Shown in pieces: positions 4,273-34,775 of a stretch of DNA of 64,000 nt. Position 1 is the first letter of the stretch; every line of letters starts with the position of its first letter. Origin of the DNA: a virus. Lineage: Duplodnaviria > Caudoviricetes. Below the pieces are notes generated by a model. The model searched no databases. It was not told where the DNA came from and was given only the letters and a program-made list of their open reading frames with translations. The position numbers and the translations under genes were made by a program. The stretch lies in the IMG/VR virus record IMGVR_UViG_3300033070_001497, positions 1-64,000 of that record; one strand, given 5' to 3'.

Positions 4273-6333
4273 ATGGAAGACACACTGGTGAAAGTCCGGA
4301 GATTCTCTAACCTGAACGAGCTCAGGCTCTCCGATCTACCCGCGTACAGATACGTGCTGATCAATCCATCGGAATCGCCGACGTGCATCTACAAGGCCAT
4401 ACCTGGCATCGAGAAGGTCGCCCGGTTCGTGGCCAGGATCAACAACTGGAACAGGACTCCGTCTCTTGACATCGACCTCTGGTTGCTGGACGATGATGGG
4501 ATGATCAGGTCAGCGACCGGCGGGCCCATCGAGCTCGATCTCCCGAAATTCACGATGCTCTTCGATCCGAGGGACAAACGCACGAGCAGCCATGTGATCA
4601 GGATAGTCGAAGGCTCGACCGACTTCGACGTTGATCTGTTAGGCAGCTTCATCGAGAAGATGCCGATCAAGGAGACCGCATTCGGCGATTTCTACGTCGA
4701 TGTCTTCGGTTGGAGGATCGATGTGCCCAAGTTCCTTGCCAGCGGTAAGCTGGTCGATTCGTTGCGCTCGTTCTTTGAGATCAGCGGCAAGTGGCAGGAC
4801 CAAGAGCAGATCAGTCGGTACCTCGGTCCGATCCTGATGCCACCGATCAAACCGGATCCGAAGGCTGGGATCACGAAGGCCCTGCTTGCGCTCGAGAAGT
4901 TCTACCAGGCCGAGAAGAGTTCAAGCTCCAAGATCGCTTACAGGGTACTCGTGGATGCCGCGAAGAGGACCATCGGTGGGCTGAAGATCTCGGTCTGCTT
5001 CAATTCGATCTTCTCCCAGGTCACAACACAGGAGCAGTTCAGCGAGAAATGCTCGGAGCTGTCAAAGCTCCTGTTCATGGGTGGCCGGCAGTACTACTGG
5101 ACCGCGGATCAATTCCTGACCAGGGTGGTCGATTCCGATTCGCTCAAGGACGTCAAGAAGTCCGCCATCAAACGCAGGCAGACCGGAGCCTTCAACAAGA
5201 TCATGGCCGACCTCGACTTCATCGAGATCGACAGGGACAAATACCCAAAGACACACGAGGCCGTCTACAACGGCGACATCCCAGTCGGCACCTTCTTCAG
5301 GAAGACCGGCGAGACATACTTCGCCTACAACGACAGCTGGGACCTCTGGGAGGAGATGCTCACGTACCACCATGACATCGCCATCCAGATCGCCAAGGAG
5401 GCCTCATCAAGGAGCACGTACGAGAAGGACCTCCTGTCCTACTTCCAGTTCACCCTCCACACGCTGCCGGAGTACCTTGCCAAGCACACTGGCAAGCCTT
5501 GGACTGGGATACCGAAGGTGGTGAAGAGCGCGAACGAACTTGAGCCGCCAAGTGAGGATCGGCCCGGCACTACCAAGACACGCAGCGCGCTGACTCCGAT
5601 AGTCGACAACGAGAACAACACCGTCACCGTCCCTTACGTGACCATGTCGGTCTACGGCAGGAACACGACCTACTGTTATGGTCTGGACTTCAACGTCCTG
5701 AGGCGAGGCTTCTCTTTCGAAGGAAGCGCAGTGACAAAGGACGTCGAGGAGAAGCTCAACGGCCGTGACGATTATGGCCTCATGTTCTACACGCTGACCG
5801 GATCTGACAGCAACACCGGTTACCCGACCTTCCTCATCATCTTCGAGAGGCTCCATGACTCAACTCGCGTCCACTTCCACAGGACCCACTCGATGAGGTC
5901 CAAACAGGGCGAGAACAACCCAGTCCACAACTGGACCAGGTCAGGGTACAAATGGATGGTCGGCAACGTGGCCTTTGACCGGATCAAGGCCCAACAAGGA
6001 GACCTCGCTTTCGTGGAAATCGACAAAGTGCCAGATCCCGATCCGGACAGGAAGACAGTCGCGTTCGATCCCAACGACGAGAACTACATCGATCCGCGAC
6101 CGCGGTACGTCAACAGCTACGACAGCCACACCTTCGGTGAGAAGGTGCTCTTCTTCCCGTACCTCAAGAAGGACAAACAGAATGTGCTCGGATACGTTAC
6201 GCTGCCGCATGCTGTAGGGCTCACACACAAGGAGCACATGGCCCGCGCCATACCTGCAGGAACGTATGAGATCAGGCAGTGCAAGTCATGGGAAGCCAAC
6301 CCACGAGGCATCTGGAGCTACAGGATCGACTGA
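4273..6333 (+). CDS. large hypothetical protein with a C-terminal QQGD...H..H...IPAGTYEIR (cupin-like) domain
   Basis: 686-aa ORF; C-terminal motif of a small, widespread phage domain. Confidence 0.7.
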   Translation: MEDTLVKVRRFSNLNELRLSDLPAYRYVLINPSESPTCIYKAIPGIEKVARFVARINNWNRTPSLDIDLWLLDDDGMIRSATGGPIELDLPKFTMLFDPRDKRTSSHVIRIVEGSTDFDVDLLGSFIEKMPIKETAFGDFYVDVFGWRIDVPKFLASGKLVDSLRSFFEISGKWQDQEQISRYLGPILMPPIKPDPKAGITKALLALEKFYQAEKSSSSKIAYRVLVDAAKRTIGGLKISVCFNSIFSQVTTQEQFSEKCSELSKLLFMGGRQYYWTADQFLTRVVDSDSLKDVKKSAIKRRQTGAFNKIMADLDFIEIDRDKYPKTHEAVYNGDIPVGTFFRKTGETYFAYNDSWDLWEEMLTYHHDIAIQIAKEASSRSTYEKDLLSYFQFTLHTLPEYLAKHTGKPWTGIPKVVKSANELEPPSEDRPGTTKTRSALTPIVDNENNTVTVPYVTMSVYGRNTTYCYGLDFNVLRRGFSFEGSAVTKDVEEKLNGRDDYGLMFYTLTGSDSNTGYPTFLIIFERLHDSTRVHFHRTHSMRSKQGENNPVHNWTRSGYKWMVGNVAFDRIKAQQGDLAFVEIDKVPDPDPDRKTVAFDPNDENYIDPRPRYVNSYDSHTFGEKVLFFPYLKKDKQNVLGYVTLPHAVGLTHKEHMARAIPAGTYEIRQCKSWEANPRGIWSYRID

Positions 6334-9567: not shown

Positions 9568-9707
9568 CTTCGCCGTTTCACGGATTCGGCCGAAGTGTTA
9601 TGTTTGTCGTCCTAAACTAGTAAATGGCATCGTTCCTTGGGTCACTAAGCAGATAGACATAAAAGGTGGACATGTCTGCTGCTATCTATCCACTAACACA
9701 AACCAGC

Positions 9708-10982
9708 ATGAAAGAGGTAAAGTTGATCTGTGTCACGGAGGAAAATAACAACAAGATCTACAACATGAAAGAGGATCCTGGTGGATCCACGTTCACGGCC
9801 CAATGGGGCCGGGTCGGAGGCACGCTAGCCAGCAAGCAATATCCCATGCGCGAATGGGACAAGATCTACAACGAGAAGACCGGAAAGATCCGGAACGGGT
9901 ACATCTACAAGGACATGACCCATCTCTTCGCAGTCGAGGCGCCCGCTGCCGATGGAAGCCCATCGGCTCCAACCGTCAGGCAGATGATCGCGAGCGGGAG
10001 GCACTCGACTGTGAAGGACATCATGACACGGCTCCTGGCATTCGCCAAGAAGTCGATCCAGATGAACTACACCGTCAGCTCCGAAGCGGTCACACAGGCA
10101 CAGGTAGACGAGGCACAGCGCCAACTCGATGAGATCGCTAAGCTCGGTTACAAGGATCAGACCGTGCAGGAGATCAACCGCAAGCTGGTTGACTTCTTCC
10201 AGGTGGTGCCTCGGAAGATGAAGAAGGTGAGCGATCACCTGATCCCATTGGACGGCGAGGATCACTCCAAGCTATTCGATGACATCATCATGGAGGAGCA
10301 GAACACCCTGGACGTTATGGCCGGCCAGGTGACCATGCAAGACAAGGACAAGAAGGCGGCCAACGAGCCCAAGGCGGTCACACAAGCAGACATCCTCGAC
10401 CAGATGGGCCTCGAGATGGAGCCTGTCACAGACCCGAAGGCGATCGCGGAGATCAAAGCCCAGATGCAATCCAAGGCCAAGATGTTCAAACAAGCCTTCC
10501 GGGTGGTCAATAAGCGCACCAGCAAGGTCTACGAGGAACACATCAACAAGGCCCCGGTCAAGAAGAGCGAGCTCTTCTGGCACGGCTCACGCTCGGAGAA
10601 CTGGACCTCCATCATGGAGAAAGGTCTCCTCATCCGGCCATCTGGCGCGGCTTACACTGGATCGATGTTCGGCGACGGCATCTACTTCGCATCGGAGTTC
10701 GACAAGTCGCTCGGTTACACATCGATCAACTCCTCGAGATGGGCAGGCGGCAACTCAAACGTGGCTTTCCTCGCCCTCTACCGTGTGCACATCGGCAAGC
10801 AGTATGTGACGCAGAACTCTGACGGTTCGCTGTGTCATTCGAAGCTCCAGAAGCTCGGTGGGTATGACTCAACCCATGGCAAGAAAGGCAGCTGGTTGGC
10901 ACGCGACGAGTACATCGTCTACACCCCACAGCAATGCACCATCGAGTACCTCGTTGAGGTGGAAGGCAGCCAATACTCATGA
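9708..10982 (+). CDS. poly(ADP-ribose) polymerase with WGR, regulatory and catalytic domains
   Basis: NNNKIY...AQWGRVG (WGR), FFQVVPRK (regulatory), FWHGSR, GSMFGDGIYFA, KSLGY, DEYIVY (H-Y-E triad). Confidence 0.88.
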   Translation: MKEVKLICVTEENNNKIYNMKEDPGGSTFTAQWGRVGGTLASKQYPMREWDKIYNEKTGKIRNGYIYKDMTHLFAVEAPAADGSPSAPTVRQMIASGRHSTVKDIMTRLLAFAKKSIQMNYTVSSEAVTQAQVDEAQRQLDEIAKLGYKDQTVQEINRKLVDFFQVVPRKMKKVSDHLIPLDGEDHSKLFDDIIMEEQNTLDVMAGQVTMQDKDKKAANEPKAVTQADILDQMGLEMEPVTDPKAIAEIKAQMQSKAKMFKQAFRVVNKRTSKVYEEHINKAPVKKSELFWHGSRSENWTSIMEKGLLIRPSGAAYTGSMFGDGIYFASEFDKSLGYTSINSSRWAGGNSNVAFLALYRVHIGKQYVTQNSDGSLCHSKLQKLGGYDSTHGKKGSWLARDEYIVYTPQQCTIEYLVEVEGSQYS

Positions 10983-12433: not shown

Positions 12434-14446
12434 ATGGAAAGACCGTACCTGATGGGCCTCAACGAGGCCCAACTCGAGGCTGTGCTCAACACCGAAGGGC
12501 CAAACATGGTCATAGCTGGCCCGGGCTCAGGCAAGACGCGTGTTCTCACGACGCGCATCGCACACCTCGTGGCAGAGGGCGTGGACCCGTTCAGGATCCT
12601 GGCCCTGACATTCACGAACAAGGCTGCCAAGGAGATGAAGTCGAGGATCTCGAAGCTTCTAGAAGGATCGACGAGCTCTGACTCCGTGTGGGCCGGCACG
12701 TTCCACAGCGTCTTCGCTAGGGCCCTGCGCCTGAACGCTGAGCGCATCGGCTACACCCCAGATTTCTCGATCTACGACTCAGACGACACTCGGTCGTTGA
12801 TCAAATCGGTTGTCAAGTCGATGAGGTTGGACGAGAAGCTCTACAAGCCCGCACTCATCCAGAACAGGATAAGCCAGGCCAAGAACGCGATGATAGGGCC
12901 GTTGGAGTACGCCGAGAATGAGCGCAGGACTGGGTTCGACGAAGAGAGCGGCAGGCCAAGGATCGCCGACATCTACGAGGAGTATGCGTTCCGTTGCTTC
13001 AAGTCGAACGCCATGGACTTCGATGACCTGCTCTTCAACATGGCCCTCATGCTCAGGGACCACGACGACATCCGAGAGCAGTACCAACAGAGGTTCAGCC
13101 ATGTCCTAGTCGATGAGTACCAGGACACGAACGCTGCCCAGTTCGACATCGTGCGCCAGCTAGTCGAGAAGCACAGGAACATCACCGTAGTTGGAGACGA
13201 CAGCCAGAGCATCTACTCCTTCCGAGGAGCCAAGGTCGGCAACATGCTCCGCTTCCTGGAGGATTACCCAGACCACAAGCTGCTCAAGCTCGAGCAGAAC
13301 TACCGCAGCATCGGCGCCATCGTAGACGCGGCCAACTCCGTCATCACGAACAACAAGGACCGGATCGATAAGACCATCTGGACCGAGAATTCGGCTGGTG
13401 ATAGGATCTCGATACACCTCGCGAACAGCGAACAGGACGAGGCCGACTACGTAGCGCGCTGCATAGCAGCCATCGCGAAGGGAAAGGGAGCCAAGCCGTC
13501 TGAATTCGCCGTCCTCTACCGCACGAACGCACAGAGCCGCTCGATAGAGACAGCCCTCTCAGCCAAGGCCATCCCTTACCGGGTGTACGGCGGCATCAGC
13601 TTCTACCAGCGCAAGGAGGTGAAGGACCTCATCGCGTACATGCGGCTCGCTTGCAACCCGAACGACGAGGAGGCTCTGAAACGAGTGATCAACTACCCAA
13701 CACGAGGCATCGGCAATTCGACCGTCGATCGGCTGTTGGCCATAAGCGGCACGCGGAAACTCGGGATCTGGGACGCCATGGACCAGCACCTATTCGACGC
13801 TGGCCTGGGAGATTCCACCCTGAAGAAAGTGAGCGACTTCATCGCGAAGATCAAGGGCTTCCAGGCCGTGGCCAAGGGCCCAGCTTCGGATGCAGTCGAC
13901 CACATCGCCGATTCGTCTGGCGTGATGTCCGAGCTCGGATCTGACCTCAGCCCTGAGGGCCAGGAAAGGCACGACAACGCACAGCAGCTCGTATCGGCCG
14001 CCAAGGAGTTCAATGAGCGGAGGCCAAGCGCGCCTCTCGCAGATTTCCTTGCTGAGATCGCTCTTGTGACCGGATCGGATTCCTCGGACGATGGAACGGT
14101 CAGCCTCATGACGGCCCATGCATCCAAGGGACTGGAATTCCCGTACGTCTTCATCATCGGTCTCGAGGAAGGGCTCTTCCCGAACTCGCTTGGGATGTCT
14201 ACCCGAGAGGACCTCGAGGAGGAGCGCCGGCTCTTCTACGTCGCATTGACCAGGGCCGAGCGCTACGTCTCGCTCGTCCACTCGCAGTCCAGGTTCCGTT
14301 GGGGCCAGGTCGATTACCCTGCGCCGAGCAGGTTCCTCCGTGAAGTGGGCGACGGCGTCACCCGGACACAGAGCCCTCCGAGGCCCAAGCCAGCTACCAC
14401 GCCTCCCTGGGCCCGAGCATTGAAGGACAGAGATGATTCTTTCTGA
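12434..14446 (+). CDS. uvrD: UvrD/PcrA superfamily-1 DNA helicase
   Basis: AGPGSGKT, LTFTNKAA, VDEYQDTN, VGDDSQSIYSFRGA, LEQNYRS, TAHASKGLEF, EERRLFYVALTRA. Confidence 0.93.
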   Translation: MERPYLMGLNEAQLEAVLNTEGPNMVIAGPGSGKTRVLTTRIAHLVAEGVDPFRILALTFTNKAAKEMKSRISKLLEGSTSSDSVWAGTFHSVFARALRLNAERIGYTPDFSIYDSDDTRSLIKSVVKSMRLDEKLYKPALIQNRISQAKNAMIGPLEYAENERRTGFDEESGRPRIADIYEEYAFRCFKSNAMDFDDLLFNMALMLRDHDDIREQYQQRFSHVLVDEYQDTNAAQFDIVRQLVEKHRNITVVGDDSQSIYSFRGAKVGNMLRFLEDYPDHKLLKLEQNYRSIGAIVDAANSVITNNKDRIDKTIWTENSAGDRISIHLANSEQDEADYVARCIAAIAKGKGAKPSEFAVLYRTNAQSRSIETALSAKAIPYRVYGGISFYQRKEVKDLIAYMRLACNPNDEEALKRVINYPTRGIGNSTVDRLLAISGTRKLGIWDAMDQHLFDAGLGDSTLKKVSDFIAKIKGFQAVAKGPASDAVDHIADSSGVMSELGSDLSPEGQERHDNAQQLVSAAKEFNERRPSAPLADFLAEIALVTGSDSSDDGTVSLMTAHASKGLEFPYVFIIGLEEGLFPNSLGMSTREDLEEERRLFYVALTRAERYVSLVHSQSRFRWGQVDYPAPSRFLREVGDGVTRTQSPPRPKPATTPPWARALKDRDDSF

Positions 14447-14943: not shown

Positions 14944-15603
14944 ATGTTACGGCAATTGATCTGTTCGAAGTGTAATTCCTTGTTTGAGATTGATGTGAAG
15001 GAATCGGCATGGCGGTTCGGAGATTACCGTAGGACATGTTCATCGAAATGTGCTAGAAGCAGAATGCTTTCGTCAGAATCGAAAGAGAAGAAACGGAAGT
15101 CAATGACCAAGAATCTTGGTCCCTATTGTCGGCTCAGTTCGATGGCAAAAAAGTGCAAGTGGTGTAAAAGACCGCATCGATCAGCAGATCGAAAATACTG
15201 CAGCGATCAGTGCTTGCTGAAAGCACAGAGTAAATCTGCAACAGATATTAACCTTGGTGGAAATCGAAACCGTTATGCTAAAGGCTGGTATGATTCACCG
15301 ATCGCCGGTAAAGTCTACTTGGAAAGCTCTTGGGAACTTGAATTAGCTAAGATTCTTGATGAGCTGGTCATTCAATGGATTCGTCCAGATTCAATGAATT
15401 GGATCGATGACAATGGAGTCACACATAAGTATTTTGCTGACTTCTATCTGATGGAATCTAATCTCTACCTGGATCCTAAAGCACCAGCTTTCCAAGCCAG
15501 AGACTCAAGAAAAATAGAATTGGTATCATCACAGAACAATGTCATAGTTCTTGTTCTAGGAAAGGATCAAATCACCAAGGAGTATATTCGAACGATAGCG
15601 TGA
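14944..15603 (+). mobile_element. free-standing PD-(D/E)xK (TnsA-like) homing endonuclease with Zn-finger N-terminus
   Basis: ESSWE...YFADFYL...YLDPK and CxxC motifs; visibly AT-richer than its flanks; inserted in the tRNA array. Confidence 0.65.
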
Positions 15604-15834
15604 GGGAAAGAGGACCCACCGCTGTTGGCTCGTCCAACAGAGGAAGTTCGCGGCATCCATCTAGGAGGAAGGAGACGCAAGTCGCTCGCACTTCCGCAAC
15701 ATGGGATGCAACCGAAACAGTGGCTAGGCTGGGTGCCTAGAGGCCGGAAAACGCCGCAAGGCGAAACAGCCACGGGTACGGGCTCAGACAAATGGTGGGA
15801 TAAACCAGAACCGCGGCTACGCTCGCCCTCGCGC
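15598..15834 (+). ncRNA. rnpB: minimal RNase P RNA
   Basis: P1 GCGTGAGGG/CCCTCGCGC, P2 CCCACCG/TGGTGGG, P3 CTGTTGG/CCAACAG, GAGGAA-G(T)TCGCGG pairing with AGAA-CCGCGGCT (P4 with bulged U), AGACAAATG, and L15 GGTA. Confidence 0.8.
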
Positions 15835-15847
15835 ATATTACAATACC

Positions 15848-16388
15848 AAGGGGTCACACTGCACGACCAACTACGGATAAACATGGACGTCGAAAGACGC
15901 GAATGGAGTGGGATTCGAAGCCCACAAAACCGACCCCTGACAAGGTGCCCAACTGCAACACAAACCAGCTCTTCCAAAGCAGAGGTCCGGTGTTCGAATC
16001 CCGGTGGGTCCGCTACTAAACAAACGGACTCATAGTGTAATGGCTAGCACGCTTAAAGCGGCACCTGCCCACAAGGTACTCAACCGCATTCAACTTGTCC
16101 CGCCACAACTGGGACAAAACAGATGGGTACCTGACAAGGCGTCACACAGCAATCCAAACGCAACATTGAGATGCAAACCCATGACGCCTGATAAGGTGAC
16201 AATCAGCAAGACACGCAACGAAAACGAGGAGTTCTAGGTCCGAATCCTGGCTGGCCCACTAAAAACGTCAATGGGCCGGTGGAGTAACGGTAACTCGCCC
16301 CGATGCAAAAGTCACCTGACAGGGCATCTAACAGCAGTTCTATCTTGACCGCGGCTTCGGCCGTTGATGAGACCAAAACAGATGCCCG
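15848..16388 (+). repeat. array of six stem-closed RNA units (AGG-stem...CAGCA/CTGCA...AAA-stem-CCTG)
   Basis: Units at 15848-15939, 15942-16067, 16073-16133, 16136-16190, 16193-16318 and 16321-16388, with covarying closing stems. Confidence 0.75.
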
Positions 16389-16393
16389 TATTC

Positions 16394-16466
16394 GCTTCCA
16401 TAGTTCAGTAGGTGAGAACAGGTCCTTGGTAAGGATCAGACAAGAGTTCGATTCTCTTTGGGAGCT
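16394..16466 (+). tRNA. tRNA-Thr(GGT)
   Basis: GGTCC-TTGGTAA-GGATC; canonical arms. Confidence 0.88.
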
Positions 16467-16469
16467 CAA

Positions 16470-16682
16470 ATGAAACTAGTCAACGAATTACCGAATCTGT
16501 TCGAACGAGCACAGTTCTTTGTTCGGGCTCTTCGAGATGACACTCGATTGTCGAACGAGGAGATCGAGATGGAAGCTGTCTCTGAAATCTGTGACGAGCT
16601 GCTAGATTCGATCGATCTGACAGATCGTAAAGAGCTCAAGAGAGCTCTACGGAACATGTACTTCCTAGGCCAACTCAAATGA
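16470..16682 (+). CDS. hypothetical protein
   Basis: 70-aa ORF between the tRNA and the SLOG gene. Confidence 0.6.
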   Translation: MKLVNELPNLFERAQFFVRALRDDTRLSNEEIEMEAVSEICDELLDSIDLTDRKELKRALRNMYFLGQLK

Positions 16683-17035
16683 AGCTCATAGTCGCTGGTG
16701 GTCGGGATTTCAACGATTGGGATCTGCTGAACAGAACACTGACGAAGATCCTCGAGAGGACCCAGATCAAAGAGGTGATCAGTGGAAAGGCCAAGGGAGC
16801 TGACACGCTGGGTGAGAGATTCGCTTCGGAGAATGGGATCCCAGTGAAGGAATTTCCAGCGGACTGGATCAAATACGGCAAACGGGCTGGGTACCTCAGG
16901 AACAAACAGATGGCCAATCACGGAGAAGCGTTGGTGGCCTTCTGGGATGGCAAGAGCCCAGGAACAAAGATGATGATCGACCTCGCCAAGGAGCTTGGTC
17001 TCAAGGTGCTGGTGGTAAAATACATGGCTGGGTAG
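16679..17035 (+). CDS. SLOG-superfamily (DUF2493/YspA-like) protein
   Basis: IVAGGRDF, ISGKAKGADTLG, AGYLRNKQM, AFWDGKSPGT. Confidence 0.8.
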   Translation: MKLIVAGGRDFNDWDLLNRTLTKILERTQIKEVISGKAKGADTLGERFASENGIPVKEFPADWIKYGKRAGYLRNKQMANHGEALVAFWDGKSPGTKMMIDLAKELGLKVLVVKYMAG

Positions 17036-17832: not shown

Positions 17833-18486
17833 ATGGCTTACAAAGATCCCAAGAAGAGGTTCTGCTTCGTCTACAAGACAACGAACCTCATCAACCAGAA
17901 GTACTACATCGGATGTCATTGTACGTACAAACTCGATGATGGGTACTTAGGAAGTGGAATGAGAATTCGAAGATCGATCAAAAAGTACGGCAAGCAAAAT
18001 TTCAAGCTTGAAGTTCTTGAATTCTTCGAAAGCCGAGAAGAAGCATTGGCTCGAGAGAAAGAATTGATCACTGAAGAGATCTTAAAAGATCCCTTGAACA
18101 TGAACATCCATCCTGGCGGATTAGGCGGTGGCGGATTTGCACTAATGTCAATTGAAAAACGGCGTGAGGCTAATAAACGTGGAGCTCAGACTCAACTAAA
18201 GAAACGTTGGTCTAATCCAGCATCACATCAAGCTCAAAGCCAGTTAATGACCAAGCTCTTGACATCGGGTAAAATTAAAAGGATCGATTGGACTGGCAAG
18301 AAACATTCAAACCAAACGAAAGACAAAATACGAAGCTCTGTTCTTGGAAAGCAAAGTGGATCCATGAACTCACAGTTTGGAAGTTGTTGGATAACCAAAG
18401 ACAAACAGTCGATGAAGATCCGGAAAGACGATATCCAGTCCTATTTAGATCTTGGTTGGCAATTGGGTCGTAAGATGAAACAGTAA
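17833..18486 (+). mobile_element. GIY-YIG (Seg-like) homing endonuclease with NUMOD3 tail
   Basis: FVYKTTNLINQKYYIG..H...DGYLGSG; GKKHS...; AT-richer; located in the tRNA array. Confidence 0.85.
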
Positions 18487-18595: not shown

Positions 18596-18664
18596 TTGGC
18601 AGTAGCTTAACCAAGAGCGCCGGCCTACGAAGCCAGAGGTACGGAGTTGATTCCGTCTGTCAGA
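18596..18664 (+). tRNA. degenerate tRNA-Arg(ACG)
   Basis: CCGGC-CTACGAA-GCCAG; D-loop lacks GG; T-loop non-canonical. Confidence 0.5.
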
Positions 18665-32888: not shown

Positions 32889-34775
32889 ATGGCAGAAGCA
32901 ACCGCAGTCTCGCACCTCGAGAAGCTCGAGGGCGAGTACCTTCAGGCCAAACAGGCCTACTACAACGGTGCTCCGATCATGACGGACGCCGAGTTCGACG
33001 AGCTCGAGGATCAGCTTGTGGCTCTCAATTCCACAGTCACCACGAAAGTAGGTGCGGTCGGAAGCTACGACCGCAAGCACCCTTCGCCGATGCTCTCGCT
33101 CTCGAAGATCATGGTGATGGAAGACGACAAGCTGCCGATCGAGCAGTTCGAGAAATGGGCGTCCAAGGTGCCCGGGCCCACGCAATTCGAATACACACCC
33201 AAGCTGGATGGCTCATCGTGCAACTTGGTCTACATCAACGGCCAACTCGATTCAGCCATAACTCGAGGAGACGGCATCCATGGCACGGACATCACCGCCA
33301 AGATGCGGATGATCGTGCCGCACTCGATCTCGTGCACCGACCGAGTGGAGATCCGAGGCGAGGTGGTCATCAGGTCTGACATCTTCGCTCTGAAGTACCA
33401 GAAGGATTACAAGAACCCAAGGAACTTTGTGGCCGGTGTGTTGGGCCGCAAGGAGGACTTCGACGAGGCGAAGGACTTCACCTTCATCGCCTTCGAGGCG
33501 AGGATCCACAAGGATGGTGAGATCCAGTATGTGAAGATCGAAAGCGTCGATGGGAACGGCAACGTCGGAAGCTCCAATTTCAACCTCCCATACAGCTTCA
33601 TCGCGACGGCCAATGAATTCGATAAGGCATATCGGACGATGCTCTCGCATCGCATCGATTCATCCCTATTCCAGCTCGATGGATTCGTCGTCAAGTATCC
33701 ATACATCCATCGGGCCGATCTCGGAGAAAATGACCACGACCCAAACTGGGCAGTGGCCATCAAATTCCCACCGAAGGAAGCGATCACCGACGTGATCGGG
33801 CTCGAGTGGAACGTTGGATCCACATCAGAACTCTGCCCAGTGGCGGTGCTGAGGCCGGTGTTCCTCGATGGAACCGAGGTCTCACGGGTGTCAGTCTACA
33901 ACTACGGCAATGTCTCCAAGCTCGGCCTCTATCCGGGTGCAAGAGTGGCCATTGCCAAGTCTGGCGACATCATCCCGATCGTCAAGCGTGTGATCACACC
34001 GAGCACCAATGGGTCGGCGCCAGCCAGGTGCACATGTGGATCCGTCACAGAGATCGATGGCATCCACGTCTATTGCACAGGCGACACATGCGGAGATCGT
34101 GACCTGGTCAAGATCCGTCGAGGCCTCACTCTCCTCGGCGTCAAGAACTTCGGCGACAGCACGGTAGAGCGCCTGATGCAAGCCGGGATCAAGCGCATCC
34201 AGGACTACTTCGACGCTTCGAAGTTCAACAAGCTGGCGCTCATCAACAGCGGTCTCTTCAAGCCAGGACGCTCGCTCGACATCATTTTCGATTCCTTCAA
34301 CGAGCGCAAGCCACTCACACTTGACCTCGCTATCGTGATCCTCCAGTTCGACGGCGTCGGTCGAACGATCTCGAAGGCCATCGCCCAGCACATGGTCGGC
34401 GGCACACCTGACTTCAGTGGTATGACCAAGGAGGTGCTCGCAAGGATGCTGAGCCCGATCTCGGAAGAATCTCGAGCGGTGCGCGCGTTCCTCACTTTGC
34501 TCTCCGACAACGGGCACAAGGTCGAGAACCCCAAGAAGGTGAGCGCAGATGCCATCAAGATCGAGATGACCGGTTCACCGAAACCGCACTGGAACACGAA
34601 AGACGCGCTCATGGCCGAGCTCGCTGCCAAGAATGTGATCCACCATGGCCTCAAGCCAGACACCACCTACCTGGTCACAGACGACAAGAACTCCACTTCA
34701 TCCAAGATGGCCAAAGCCGCCAAACTCGGAGTCAAGGTGATCACCTACGCTGAGCTCAAATCCATCATCGCATAG
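32889..34775 (+). CDS. ligA: NAD-dependent DNA ligase
   Basis: AYYNG...DAEFD, PKLDG, TRGDG, EIRGE, DGFVVK, AIKF, SGDIIP, C-terminal BRCT. Confidence 0.93.
   Translation: MAEATAVSHLEKLEGEYLQAKQAYYNGAPIMTDAEFDELEDQLVALNSTVTTKVGAVGSYDRKHPSPMLSLSKIMVMEDDKLPIEQFEKWASKVPGPTQFEYTPKLDGSSCNLVYINGQLDSAITRGDGIHGTDITAKMRMIVPHSISCTDRVEIRGEVVIRSDIFALKYQKDYKNPRNFVAGVLGRKEDFDEAKDFTFIAFEARIHKDGEIQYVKIESVDGNGNVGSSNFNLPYSFIATANEFDKAYRTMLSHRIDSSLFQLDGFVVKYPYIHRADLGENDHDPNWAVAIKFPPKEAITDVIGLEWNVGSTSELCPVAVLRPVFLDGTEVSRVSVYNYGNVSKLGLYPGARVAIAKSGDIIPIVKRVITPSTNGSAPARCTCGSVTEIDGIHVYCTGDTCGDRDLVKIRRGLTLLGVKNFGDSTVERLMQAGIKRIQDYFDASKFNKLALINSGLFKPGRSLDIIFDSFNERKPLTLDLAIVILQFDGVGRTISKAIAQHMVGGTPDFSGMTKEVLARMLSPISEESRAVRAFLTLLSDNGHKVENPKKVSADAIKIEMTGSPKPHWNTKDALMAELAAKNVIHHGLKPDTTYLVTDDKNSTSSKMAKAAKLGVKVITYAELKSIIA

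What the first reader, a model, noticed from the sequence alone, without database searches (positions are those of the whole stretch)
15848..16388. Array of six cassette RNAs sharing a closing-stem motif but carrying different cargo
Seen: six back-to-back units, 2-5 nt apart. Each opens with an AGG-initiated stem, then an A/C-rich (A)CAGCA/CTGCA/CCGCA motif, variable cargo, an A-run and the complementary strand. Stems are AGGGGTC/GACCCCT, AGGTGCC/GGCACCT, AGGTACTCA/TGGGTACCT, AGGCGTCA/TGACGCCT, AGGTGAC/GTCACCT and GGGCATCT/AGATGCCC. Stem sequences differ but pairing is kept, which points to selection on RNA structure. It is not a CRISPR array. Inference: a family of small RNAs with a common protein-binding handle (Ro60/TROVE-like logic) and swappable modules.
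Basis: partly seen in the sequence, partly recalled or inferred. Interest (0 to 1): 0.85.

Follow-up and report, generated by a model that had tools for sequence, protein, structure and literature searches.

The report
Phage array of Y-RNA-like cassettes
Six small RNA genes sit head to tail in a phage's tRNA operon; they share one "handle" but carry different tRNA-like parts, and they belong to a widespread, apparently unpublished phage RNA family that elsewhere lies next to a protein shaped like the RNA-binding ring Ro60.

Summary
Six units tile 15849-16387 on the + strand, 4-7 nt apart. Each is closed by a different 7-9 bp stem and has C-N-G-C-A at a fixed offset, an A-run, and a G after the 3' strand. 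Simulated sequence never gives more than two such units in a row.

Units 2 and 5 are circularly permuted tRNA look-alikes (T arm, acceptor hairpin, D arm). The array belongs to a phage family of "handle RNAs" (AG-N7-ACAGCAA ... stem ... CUG).

Covariance models built only from other phages rank units 2, 5 and 4 as the top hits in the window.

In other phages these arrays lie beside, and on the strand of, a ~560-aa DUF2828/DUF7788 protein. Its predicted fold matches Ro60 over the full length. About 40% of those genes wrap their own start codon in a copy of the handle.

This contig is 109 kb and about 38% complete. It contains no Ro60-like, TROVE or RtcB gene, so binding here is inferred.

Rfam YrlA membership fails. 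I found no paper on this system. Other readers and agents of this scan noted it in at least 18 other genomes.

The parts
15849..15938 (+). Unit 1 (90 nt). Handle stem AGGGGUC/GACCCCU, motif ACUGCAC at 15858-15864. Cargo is a GAAA-tetraloop hairpin (15888-15899) and a T-arm-like hairpin (15908-15925; 5 bp, loop AUUCGAAG).
   Evidence: Sequence; fold; motif table.
15943..16066 (+). Unit 2 (124 nt), a permuted tRNA look-alike. Handle stem AGGUGCC/GGCACCU and motif ACUGCAA. Anticodon-loop-like hairpin 15966-15982 (loop CUUCCAA). T arm 15987-16004 (loop UUCGAAU, one bulge). Acceptor 3' strand 16005-16011 followed by GCUA, a loop, then acceptor 5' strand 16026-16032. UA, then D arm 16035-16050.
   Evidence: Model R3, built only from other phages, matches its full length at 44.3 bits, E 5.5e-6, and is the best hit in the window. 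Sequence read.
16074..16132 (+). Unit 3 (59 nt). Handle stem AGGUACUCA/UGGGUACCU and motif ACCGCAU. Cargo is a 7-bp hairpin.
   Evidence: Not detected by models R2 or R3.
16137..16189 (+). Unit 4 (53 nt). Handle stem AGGCGUCA/UGACGCCU and the exact family motif ACAGCAA. Small cargo.
   Evidence: Model R2, built without window sequences, gives 35.2 bits, E 1e-4, and is the best hit in the window with filters off. Weak Rfam Dicty_Class_I_RNA match, 20.4 bits.
16194..16317 (+). Unit 5 (124 nt), a permuted tRNA look-alike. Handle stem AGGUGAC/GUCACCU and motif UCAGCAA. T arm 16234-16250 (loop UCCGAAU). Acceptor 3' strand 16251-16257 followed by ACUA, a loop, then acceptor 5' strand 16273-16279. 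D arm 16282-16296.
   Evidence: Model R3 matches its full length at 37.8 bits, E 7e-5, the second-best hit in the window.
16322..16387 (+). Unit 6 (66 nt). Handle stem GGGCAUCU/AGAUGCCC and motif ACAGCAG. Cargo includes a UUCG-tetraloop hairpin.
   Evidence: Model R2 gives 14.7 bits, E 1.5, which is marginal.
15604..15828 (+). Upstream neighbour on the same strand: a miniature RNase P RNA-like gene. It is context, not part of the array.
Evidence: Rfam RNaseP_arch 31.8 bits, E 4e-7, below the gathering score.
16394..16467 (+). Downstream neighbour on the same strand: tRNA-Thr(GGU), 6 nt after unit 6. It shows that the array lies inside the tRNA operon.
   Evidence: ARAGORN and Rfam.

Best explanation
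The stretch encodes six small non-coding RNAs of a Y-RNA-like family that I call handle RNAs. They are most likely transcribed with the phage's RNase P RNA and tRNA genes and cut apart at the 4-7 nt linkers. Each RNA has two parts. The first is a constant handle: a closing stem that starts (A)GG, an unpaired ACNGCA(A) beginning at nucleotide 10, an A-run, and a 3' strand ending CCU followed by G. The second is a variable cargo. In units 2 and 5 the cargo is a tRNA body opened between the D and anticodon arms and closed at the acceptor end. In unit 1 it is a T-arm-like hairpin, and in units 3, 4 and 6 it is small hairpins. In related phages the handle is most likely the docking site of a divergent Ro60 homologue (DUF2828/DUF7788: TROVE-like ring plus vWA). 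By analogy with Ro60-Y RNA particles, the cargo would then tether that ring to, or act as a decoy for, proteins that recognise tRNA. Shown by computation: the array, covariation of the stem, family membership of units 2, 4 and 5, linkage of the family to the Ro60-like gene, that protein's fold, and a handle copy around its start codon. Inferred: transcription, processing, binding, and what the particle does. The partner gene of this particular phage has not been seen.
For: The array is real and non-random. Models trained only on other phages pick u2 and u5 (R3: 44.3 and 37.8 bits, full length) and u4 (R2: 35.2 bits) as the top hits in 64 kb on both strands with filters off. The family closing stem covaries: 96.7% of cells are paired against 62.8% in shuffles and 37-47% when slid, and all 8 pairs have double changes. 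RNAalifold on an alignment of 30 long units that was not fitted to any structure gives a T arm, a 7-bp acceptor stem and a D arm, with 14 of 16 pairs compensated. The partner gene is present in 20 of 22 array-bearing records and in 7 of 7 records that are at least 90% complete. Starting from the protein, R2 gives 186 hits at E<=0.01, every hit in a partner-oriented locus lies on the partner's strand, and about 71 of 76 such loci have at least one hit. The same holds in contigs of higher G+C (L331 at 54% GC, L336). The partner model (pLDDT 80, pTM 0.81) has Ro60/TROVE structures as its top 12 PDB matches over 511-585 alignment columns, E 1e-8 to 8e-5. Of 47 distinct partner genes, 20 start in the context AGAUG, and 19 of those have a 6-8 bp closing stem 41-74 nt downstream followed by G; at control positions 27% reach 6 bp. 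No + strand promoter-like or terminator-like site interrupts the array.
Against: The 109-kb contig has no Ro60-like, TROVE, DUF2828, DUF7788 or RtcB match, whereas in the other phages the partner lies within about 5 kb. Units 1 and 3 are not found by the models and unit 6 only marginally. Only unit 4 has the exact family motif. Rfam YrlA does not match. No expression, processing or binding data exist. Gene linkage could partly reflect shared ancestry of the sampled phages. I found no close GC-rich relative of this window's own array.
Confidence: 0.6

Rival explanations
1. The units are stand-alone tRNA mimics. They act as decoys or sponges for host proteins that bind or cut tRNA, without any Ro60-like partner in this phage. 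The handle would serve only as a stability or processing element.
For: No partner gene lies in 109 kb. The array sits inside a tRNA operon directly after an RNase P RNA-like gene. Across the family, cargo is often an anticodon-arm look-alike: 75 units against about 10 expected from shuffled cargo, with the tRNA-Lys loop CUUUUAA seen 22 times.
Against: The handle is conserved across very different phages and tracks the Ro60-like gene. It is also copied around that gene's start codon, which a plain processing signal would not explain. The contig is only about 38% complete.
Confidence: 0.2
2. The units are processing or punctuation elements of the tRNA operon. They would be structured spacers that guide RNase P, RNase E or RNase Z cleavage, with no function of their own in trans.
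For: The spacing of 4-7 nt is like that between neighbouring tRNAs of this cluster. In some phages single units alternate with true tRNA genes. A miniature RNase P RNA lies directly upstream.
Against: Many arrays in other phages lie far from any tRNA. Cargo that mimics whole tRNA bodies, with a covarying acceptor stem, is not needed for a spacer. The link to the partner gene is also unexplained by this reading.
Confidence: 0.08
3. Units 2 and 5 are circularly permuted tRNA genes, as in the red alga Cyanidioschyzon merolae (from my own knowledge). They would mature by circularisation and re-cutting into working tRNAs.
For: The order T arm, acceptor 3' strand, linker, acceptor 5' strand, D arm is that of a permuted tRNA. 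The acceptor 3' strand is followed by NCUA.
Against: The T stem of unit 2 has a bulge, and the T loop of unit 5 reads UCCGAAU. Unit 5 has no anticodon arm, and that of unit 2 is 3-5 bp with a mismatch. The other four units share the handle but carry no tRNA body. The phage already encodes 21 normal tRNAs. Family members carry every grade from a single hairpin to a whole tRNA body.
Confidence: 0.03
4. The stretch is decayed tRNA genes or chance hairpins with no function.
For: It lies in a tRNA cluster, and single look-alike units occur by chance.
Against: A run of six never arises in simulations. Independent models give E values of 1e-4 to 5e-6. The design is conserved in hundreds of units elsewhere.
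Confidence: 0.02

Closest known systems
Bacterial and phage Y RNAs (YrlA/YrlB, Rfam RF02553) with Ro60/Rsr (Chen et al. 2014, PMC4201824); Thermus phage phiLo Ro60 with Yrl1/Yrl2 (PMC12135203)
   Same: The 5' and 3' ends pair to form a stem, with an unpaired motif beside the 5' strand. The module order in the long units is V hairpin, T arm, closed acceptor stem, D arm. Several RNAs are made from one precursor next to a ring protein with a TROVE-like plus vWA fold. Long units of other phages reach 29-38 bits on Rfam YrlA.
   Different: The partner is not detected by the Pfam TROVE model. It is a DUF2828/DUF7788 protein related to Ro60 only by fold, at 9-15% identity. The handle motif is ACAGCAA rather than GNCGAAN0-1G or CGAA. 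Arrays hold 3-9 or more units instead of 1-2, and the cargo includes isolated anticodon-arm, T-arm and other hairpins. The window's units score nothing on Rfam YrlA.
Dictyostelium Class I RNAs (Rfam RF01414; Kjellin et al. 2021, PMC7919456)
   Same: A short stem joins the ends. A conserved unpaired motif ending ACAGCAA lies next to the 5' strand, the interior is variable, the 3' strand is followed by CUG(U), and the length is about 60 nt. Rfam matches are 20.4 bits for unit 4 and 32-34 bits for two units of other phages.
   Different: All matches are below the gathering score of 41.5. Class I RNAs are single eukaryotic genes with their own promoter, not arrays. Their only known direct binder is an RRM protein. 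No link to a Ro60-like protein has been tested. The likeness may be convergence.
Circularly permuted tRNA genes of Cyanidioschyzon merolae (from my own knowledge)
   Same: The 3' half (T arm, acceptor 3' strand) comes before the 5' half (acceptor 5' strand, D arm) in one transcript, with a stem formed by the outer ends.
   Different: Here the tRNA body is imperfect. The same outer stem and motif also close units that carry no tRNA body, and nothing indicates maturation into a decoding tRNA.

Membership tests
Handle-RNA (ACAGCAA) arrays partnered with DUF2828-type Ro60 (family defined here; I found no published description) | A closing stem of 7-9 bp formed by the two ends, different in each unit but always paired | tested here: met
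   All six units. Family-wide covariation: 96.7% paired against 62.8% in shuffles.
Handle-RNA (ACAGCAA) arrays partnered with DUF2828-type Ro60 (family defined here; I found no published description) | An unpaired ACAGCAA-type motif beginning at nucleotide 10, and a G directly after the 3' strand | tested here: met
   C-N-G-C-A is at the fixed offset in all six units, exact ACAGCAA only in unit 4, and G follows all six.
Handle-RNA (ACAGCAA) arrays partnered with DUF2828-type Ro60 (family defined here; I found no published description) | A significant match to covariance models built from other phages only | tested here: met
   u2 44.3 bits, u5 37.8 bits (R3) and u4 35.2 bits (R2). u6 is marginal, and u1 and u3 are not detected.
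Handle-RNA (ACAGCAA) arrays partnered with DUF2828-type Ro60 (family defined here; I found no published description) | A DUF2828/DUF7788 Ro60-like gene on the same strand within a few kb | tested here: not met
   No match in the whole 109-kb contig. The contig is about 38% complete, so absence from the phage is not shown.
YrlA / bacterial Y RNA (Rfam RF02553; Chen et al. 2014) | A score at or above the Rfam gathering threshold (69 bits) | tested here: not met
   No match to any unit even at E<=10.
YrlA / bacterial Y RNA (Rfam RF02553; Chen et al. 2014) | The motif GNCGAAN0-1G near the 5' end, the proposed Ro60 contact | tested here: not met
   It occurs once, inside a cargo hairpin of unit 1 at 15889, and not in any handle.
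YrlA / bacterial Y RNA (Rfam RF02553; Chen et al. 2014) | A tRNA-like domain in the order V, T arm, closed acceptor stem, D arm between the paired ends | tested here: met
   Units 2 and 5. The consensus of 30 relatives agrees.
YrlA / bacterial Y RNA (Rfam RF02553; Chen et al. 2014) | Encoded within about 4 kb of a TROVE-domain Ro60 gene on the same strand | tested here: not met
   PF05731 is absent from this contig and from 21 other array-bearing records.
Dictyostelium Class I RNA (Rfam RF01414) | A score at or above the Rfam gathering threshold (41.5 bits) | tested here: not met
   20.4 bits for unit 4. The best phage units reach 32-34 bits.
Functional (permuted) tRNA gene | A complete cloverleaf with regular T arm and anticodon arm that tRNA finders recognise | tested here: not met
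   ARAGORN and the Rfam tRNA model do not call units 2 or 5, but neither is built for permuted genes. By eye, the T arm of unit 2 is bulged and unit 5 has no anticodon arm.

The most novel reading that the evidence does not exclude
The Ro60-like ring and its handle RNAs form a phage-encoded, modular capture platform. Each cassette would display a different piece of tRNA (whole body, T arm, or the anticodon arm of tRNA-Lys, Arg, Thr and others). The particle would bind and neutralise, or hand to a nuclease, the host enzymes that attack or modify tRNAs during infection, such as anticodon nucleases. A second reading, more remote and also not excluded, is that the unexplained Class I RNAs of Dictyostelium are the eukaryotic counterpart of this handle family.
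Probability: 0.2. Interest if true: 0.85.

Novelty: new variant of a known kind. Interest (0 to 1): 0.72.

Why it matters
Ro60 and Y RNAs are conserved from bacteria to humans, and Ro60 is a major autoantigen, yet what the tRNA-like module of bacterial Y RNAs binds is still unknown. This family offers many natural cargo variants on one handle, a partner protein that Pfam does not recognise as TROVE, and a likely self-regulatory handle copy on the partner's mRNA. Together these make the question testable, because cargo can be swapped and the bound proteins compared.

The partner family is large: 3297 cluster representatives at E<=1e-3. It occurs in phages from 24% to 54% G+C.

This window adds three things. 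It is a GC-rich, sequence-diverged array. It sits inside a tRNA operon directly after a phage RNase P RNA-like gene. It also shows that the array can lie far from its presumed partner gene.

Tried and rejected
- **CRISPR or simple repeats.** Multi-hit loci from the first pattern scan were tandem repeats or cyanobacterial CRISPR arrays unrelated to this design. The window's units share no long direct repeat.
- **Cultured phages.** BLAST of the region, and of a related array, against 50,697 phage records found nothing.
- **Synteny through the upstream ORF.** The 219-aa ORF gave no relatives. The protein atlas suggests a homing-endonuclease-like protein, so it is not the partner.
- **Canonical Ro60.** PF05731 is absent from this contig and from 21 related records.
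- **Sequence search of the partner profile against PDB chains.** No meaningful hit. Only the fold search showed Ro60.
- **Bacterial chromosomes.** Only 1 of 16 pattern hits in 185,579 species' genomes was a real array, in a 163-kb contig binned with a Bacteroides MAG.
- **Close GC-rich relatives of this window's array.** None found with two junction patterns.
- **RNA-repair neighbours of the partner.** None found among conserved neighbours: DUF7873, a ParB-like protein and a CxxCxxCC protein.
- **More distant GC-rich partner homologues.** L332-L334 had no detectable units.
- **First covariance model.** R1 contained window sequences, so I did not use it as evidence.

Full report
**Setting**

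The window is the first 64 kb of a 109,314-bp IMG/VR phage contig. CheckV estimates it at 38% complete and finds no end repeats. G+C is about 55%. Twenty-one tRNA genes lie on the + strand, most of them between 14.8 and 20.9 kb. The finding lies between a weak RNase P RNA-like match at 15604-15828 (Rfam RNaseP_arch, 31.8 bits, below gathering) and tRNA-Thr(GGU) at 16394. Another agent of this scan has treated the RNase P-like element.

**Observation**

| Unit | Coordinates | Length (nt) |
|---|---|---|
| u1 | 15849-15938 | 90 |
| u2 | 15943-16066 | 124 |
| u3 | 16074-16132 | 59 |
| u4 | 16137-16189 | 53 |
| u5 | 16194-16317 | 124 |
| u6 | 16322-16387 | 66 |

- The linkers are GACA, GCCCACA, GACA, GAUA and GACA.
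- In every unit the motif begins exactly at nucleotide 10: ACUGCAC, ACUGCAA, ACCGCAU, ACAGCAA, UCAGCAA, ACAGCAG.
- An A-rich run precedes each 3' strand, and a G follows it.
- Single units that fit a loose descriptor occur by chance at about 13 per strand per 109 kb.
- A run of six abutting units does not. One hundred first-order Markov simulations of the contig gave a longest run of 1 in 98 cases and 2 in two cases.
- No promoter-like or terminator-like site on the + strand interrupts the array.
- ORFs overlapping the array have no Pfam family.

**Anatomy of the cargo**

Units 2 and 5 read, after the handle, as a T arm, a 7-nt acceptor 3' strand followed by NCUA, a loop, the acceptor 5' strand, two or three bases, and a D arm with the GG of a D loop. 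This is a tRNA body opened between the D and anticodon arms and closed at the acceptor end. Chen et al. described the same order for YrlA: V, T, AS, D (PMC4201824).

Unit 2 also has a small hairpin with the anticodon-like loop CUUCCAA before the variable region. Unit 1 carries a GAAA-tetraloop hairpin and a T-arm-like hairpin. Units 3, 4 and 6 carry small hairpins.

**Relatives**

A junction pattern scan of IMG/VR found one true homologue, L078, among repeats and CRISPR arrays. L078 showed the sharper consensus: GAYA, AGR-N6, ACAGCAA, cargo, A-run, 3' strand ending YCU.

A second scan with that consensus gave about 21 phage records with arrays of 3-9 units. Most are AT-rich, and seven are at least 90% complete at 93-130 kb.

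The same pattern in one genome each of 185,579 prokaryote species gave one real array, in a 163-kb contig binned with a Bacteroides MAG, and 15 chance hits. In this sampling the family is essentially confined to phages.

**Does the window belong to the family?**

I built two covariance models without any window sequence.

- R2 comes from 51 short units and models only the 8-bp closing stem as structure.
- R3 comes from 30 long units, with the RNAalifold consensus as structure.

With filters off, over both strands of the 64-kb window:

- R3 ranks u2 (44.3 bits, E 5.5e-6) and u5 (37.8 bits, E 7e-5) first and second. Both match the full model length with exactly my unit boundaries. The next hit (E 0.046) is the junction of two ordinary tandem tRNAs.
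- R2 ranks u4 first (35.2 bits, E 1e-4) and u6 second (14.7 bits, E 1.5).
- Units 1 and 3 are not detected. They share the design but have drifted.

On the family alignment, 96.7% of closing-stem cells are paired, against 62.8% in shuffles and 37-47% when the partner column is slid. All eight pairs show double changes. That alignment is model-fitted, so the slid control is the fairer one.

RNAalifold on a plain MAFFT alignment of long units recovers the T arm, a 7-bp acceptor stem and the D arm. Fourteen of its 16 pairs are compensated.

**The partner protein**

I clustered ORFs around the arrays. One protein of about 555-600 aa lay on the array's strand in 17 of 21 loci, either just upstream or just downstream.

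- It carries Pfam DUF7788, a weak DUF2828 match, and PHROG 850 "RNA-binding protein".
- It occurs in 20 of 22 array-bearing records and in 7 of 7 that are at least 90% complete. The Pfam TROVE model matches none of the 21 of these records that I searched with it.
- An AlphaFold2 model built from 13 homologues has pLDDT 80 and pTM 0.81.
- Its 12 best PDB matches are all Ro60/TROVE structures: Thermus phage phiLo, Xenopus, human and Deinococcus. The alignments span 511-585 columns with E 1e-8 to 8e-5. vWA domains follow.
- A sequence profile search of PDB chains found nothing, so the relation is visible only by fold.

Starting from the protein instead, 80 loci with homologues were fetched. R2 gave 186 hits at E<=0.01 across the loci searched. 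Every hit in a partner-oriented locus lies on the partner's strand. About 71 of 76 such loci have at least one hit, and most of the rest are cut off just after the gene.

The protein family is large, with 3297 representatives at E<=1e-3. Contigs of higher G+C also pair gene and array:

- L331, 54% G+C, has three to four units ending just before the start codon.
- L336 has four permuted-tRNA units directly upstream of the gene, at R3 scores of 65, 58, 46 and 21 bits.
- Three more distant homologues had no detectable units.

**A handle copy on the partner's own mRNA**

Of 47 distinct partner genes, 20 begin in the context AGAUGUU. Eleven continue with an ACAGCAA-type motif (ACCGCAA in one) at the family offset. 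In 19 of the 20, a complementary strand of 6-8 nt lies 41-74 nt downstream, and in all 19 it is followed by G. At control positions inside the gene only 27% reach 6 bp.

The start codon therefore lies inside a copy of the handle. The simplest reading is that the protein binds the handle and represses its own translation. This supports "handle = binding site" independently of gene order. It remains an inference.

**Cargo across the family**

Among 351 distinct units:

- 113 contain a T-loop motif, and 61 of these also have a D arm.
- 75 have only an anticodon-arm-like hairpin, where about 10 are expected from shuffled cargo.
- The commonest loop is CUUUUAA, the tRNA-Lys(UUU) loop (that identification is from my own knowledge), seen 22 times.
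- Many of these units are orthologues, so the counts are not independent events.

In some phages single units alternate with true tRNA genes. Elsewhere arrays lie next to tmRNA and ribozyme-associated motifs.

**What fails**

- This contig has no match to TROVE, DUF2828, DUF7788, the partner profile, RtcB or T4 Rnl1. In the other phages the partner lies within about 5 kb of the array. Here it must be more than 15 kb upstream, beyond the contig start, or beyond the far contig end, or absent.
- Rfam YrlA does not match any unit. Long units of other phages reach only 29-38 bits against a threshold of 69.
- The published Ro60 contact motif GNCGAAN0-1G is not in the handle.
- I found no close GC-rich relative of this particular array.

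**Mechanism and comparison**

Known Ro60 particles use the Y RNA stem to hold the ring and the rest of the RNA to gate it or tether it to another enzyme. PNPase plays that role in Deinococcus and, in vitro, for phage phiLo (PMC4201824, PMC12135203). The system here works like that kind but differs in four ways:

- a partner protein that Pfam's TROVE model does not detect;
- a different handle motif;
- arrays of many cassettes;
- cargo ranging from single tRNA arms to whole permuted tRNA bodies.

I therefore class it as a new variant of a known kind, not as a member of YrlA. What the cargo binds is unknown. A role against host enzymes that target tRNA is attractive but untested.

**Resemblance to Dictyostelium Class I RNAs**

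Both have a stem joining the ends, a motif ending ACAGCAA beside the 5' strand, and CUG after the 3' strand (PMC7919456). The likeness shows up as sub-threshold Rfam matches of 20-34 bits. I treat it as a lead only.

**Literature and earlier notes of this scan**

Searches for YrlA, phage Ro60, DUF2828 and Class I RNA found no description of this RNA-protein pair.

Notes of this scan show that other readers and agents saw the same DUF2828/handle-RNA system in at least 18 other genomes. I found the partner, its fold and the linkage before reading those notes, and I re-tested those points myself. Their claim of an RtcB-linked bacterial version I did not test.

Noticed in passing
L189, L197, L199, L209, L237 and others, around position 5999-6060 of each locus (start of the Ro60-like gene): The start codon of many Ro60-like genes lies inside a full copy of the RNA handle: AGAUGUUU, ACAGCAA, a complementary strand 41-74 nt downstream, then G. 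This holds for 19 of the 20 genes with the AGAUG context. It points to self-regulation of translation.
   Followed up: partly
window 15604-15828 (+): A weak full-length match to archaeal RNase P RNA (31.8 bits, E 4e-7, below gathering) lies directly upstream of the array. Another agent of this scan treats it as a miniature phage RNase P RNA. No RNase P match turned up in the 13 other array-bearing loci that I scanned with Rfam.
   Followed up: partly
window 14944-15603 (+): A 219-aa ORF lies between tRNA-Thr(CGU) and the RNase P-like RNA. It has no Pfam family. Protein-atlas neighbours are phage endonuclease-like clusters (NUMOD3, Phage_endo_I, DUF7487), so it is probably a mobile homing-endonuclease gene inside the RNA operon.
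   Followed up: partly
window 16137-16189; L151 3797-3854; L170 218-276: Short units match Rfam's Dictyostelium Class I RNA model below threshold (20.4, 34.1 and 32.5 bits; gathering score 41.5). They share a stem, a motif ending ACAGCAA at the same place, and CUG after the 3' strand.
   Followed up: partly
window 17833-18486 (+), 16679-17035 (+), 9666-10982 (+), 12434-14446 (+): Genes around the RNA island: a GIY-YIG SegE-like endonuclease among the tRNAs, a YAcAr/SLOG-family protein, a protein with a PARP catalytic domain, and a UvrD-type helicase.
   Followed up: no
window 18596-18664 (+): The Rfam tRNA model matches at 34 bits (just over gathering), but ARAGORN does not call it. It may be an aberrant tRNA or a pseudogene within the cluster.
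   Followed up: no
L117 1620-1705; L190 10794-10859; L189 5868-5955; L250 5577-5678; L203, L215, L250, L136 (tmRNA): In other phages the arrays lie in RNA-gene islands with tmRNA, a Hatchet ribozyme, a twister-P1-like match, a RAGATH-1 hammerhead-like match and RAGATH-34.
   Followed up: no
window about 33186-33533 (+), within a 636-aa open frame: A sub-threshold match to the Pfam RNA_ligase (PF09414) nucleotidyltransferase domain (22.8 bits). This could be a DNA or an RNA ligase.
   Followed up: no
L198 about 5800-5905 (+): One unit appears to enclose a tRNA-like sequence that is not permuted (D arm, anticodon arm, T arm) between the handle strands, which shows how varied the cargo can be.
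   Followed up: no
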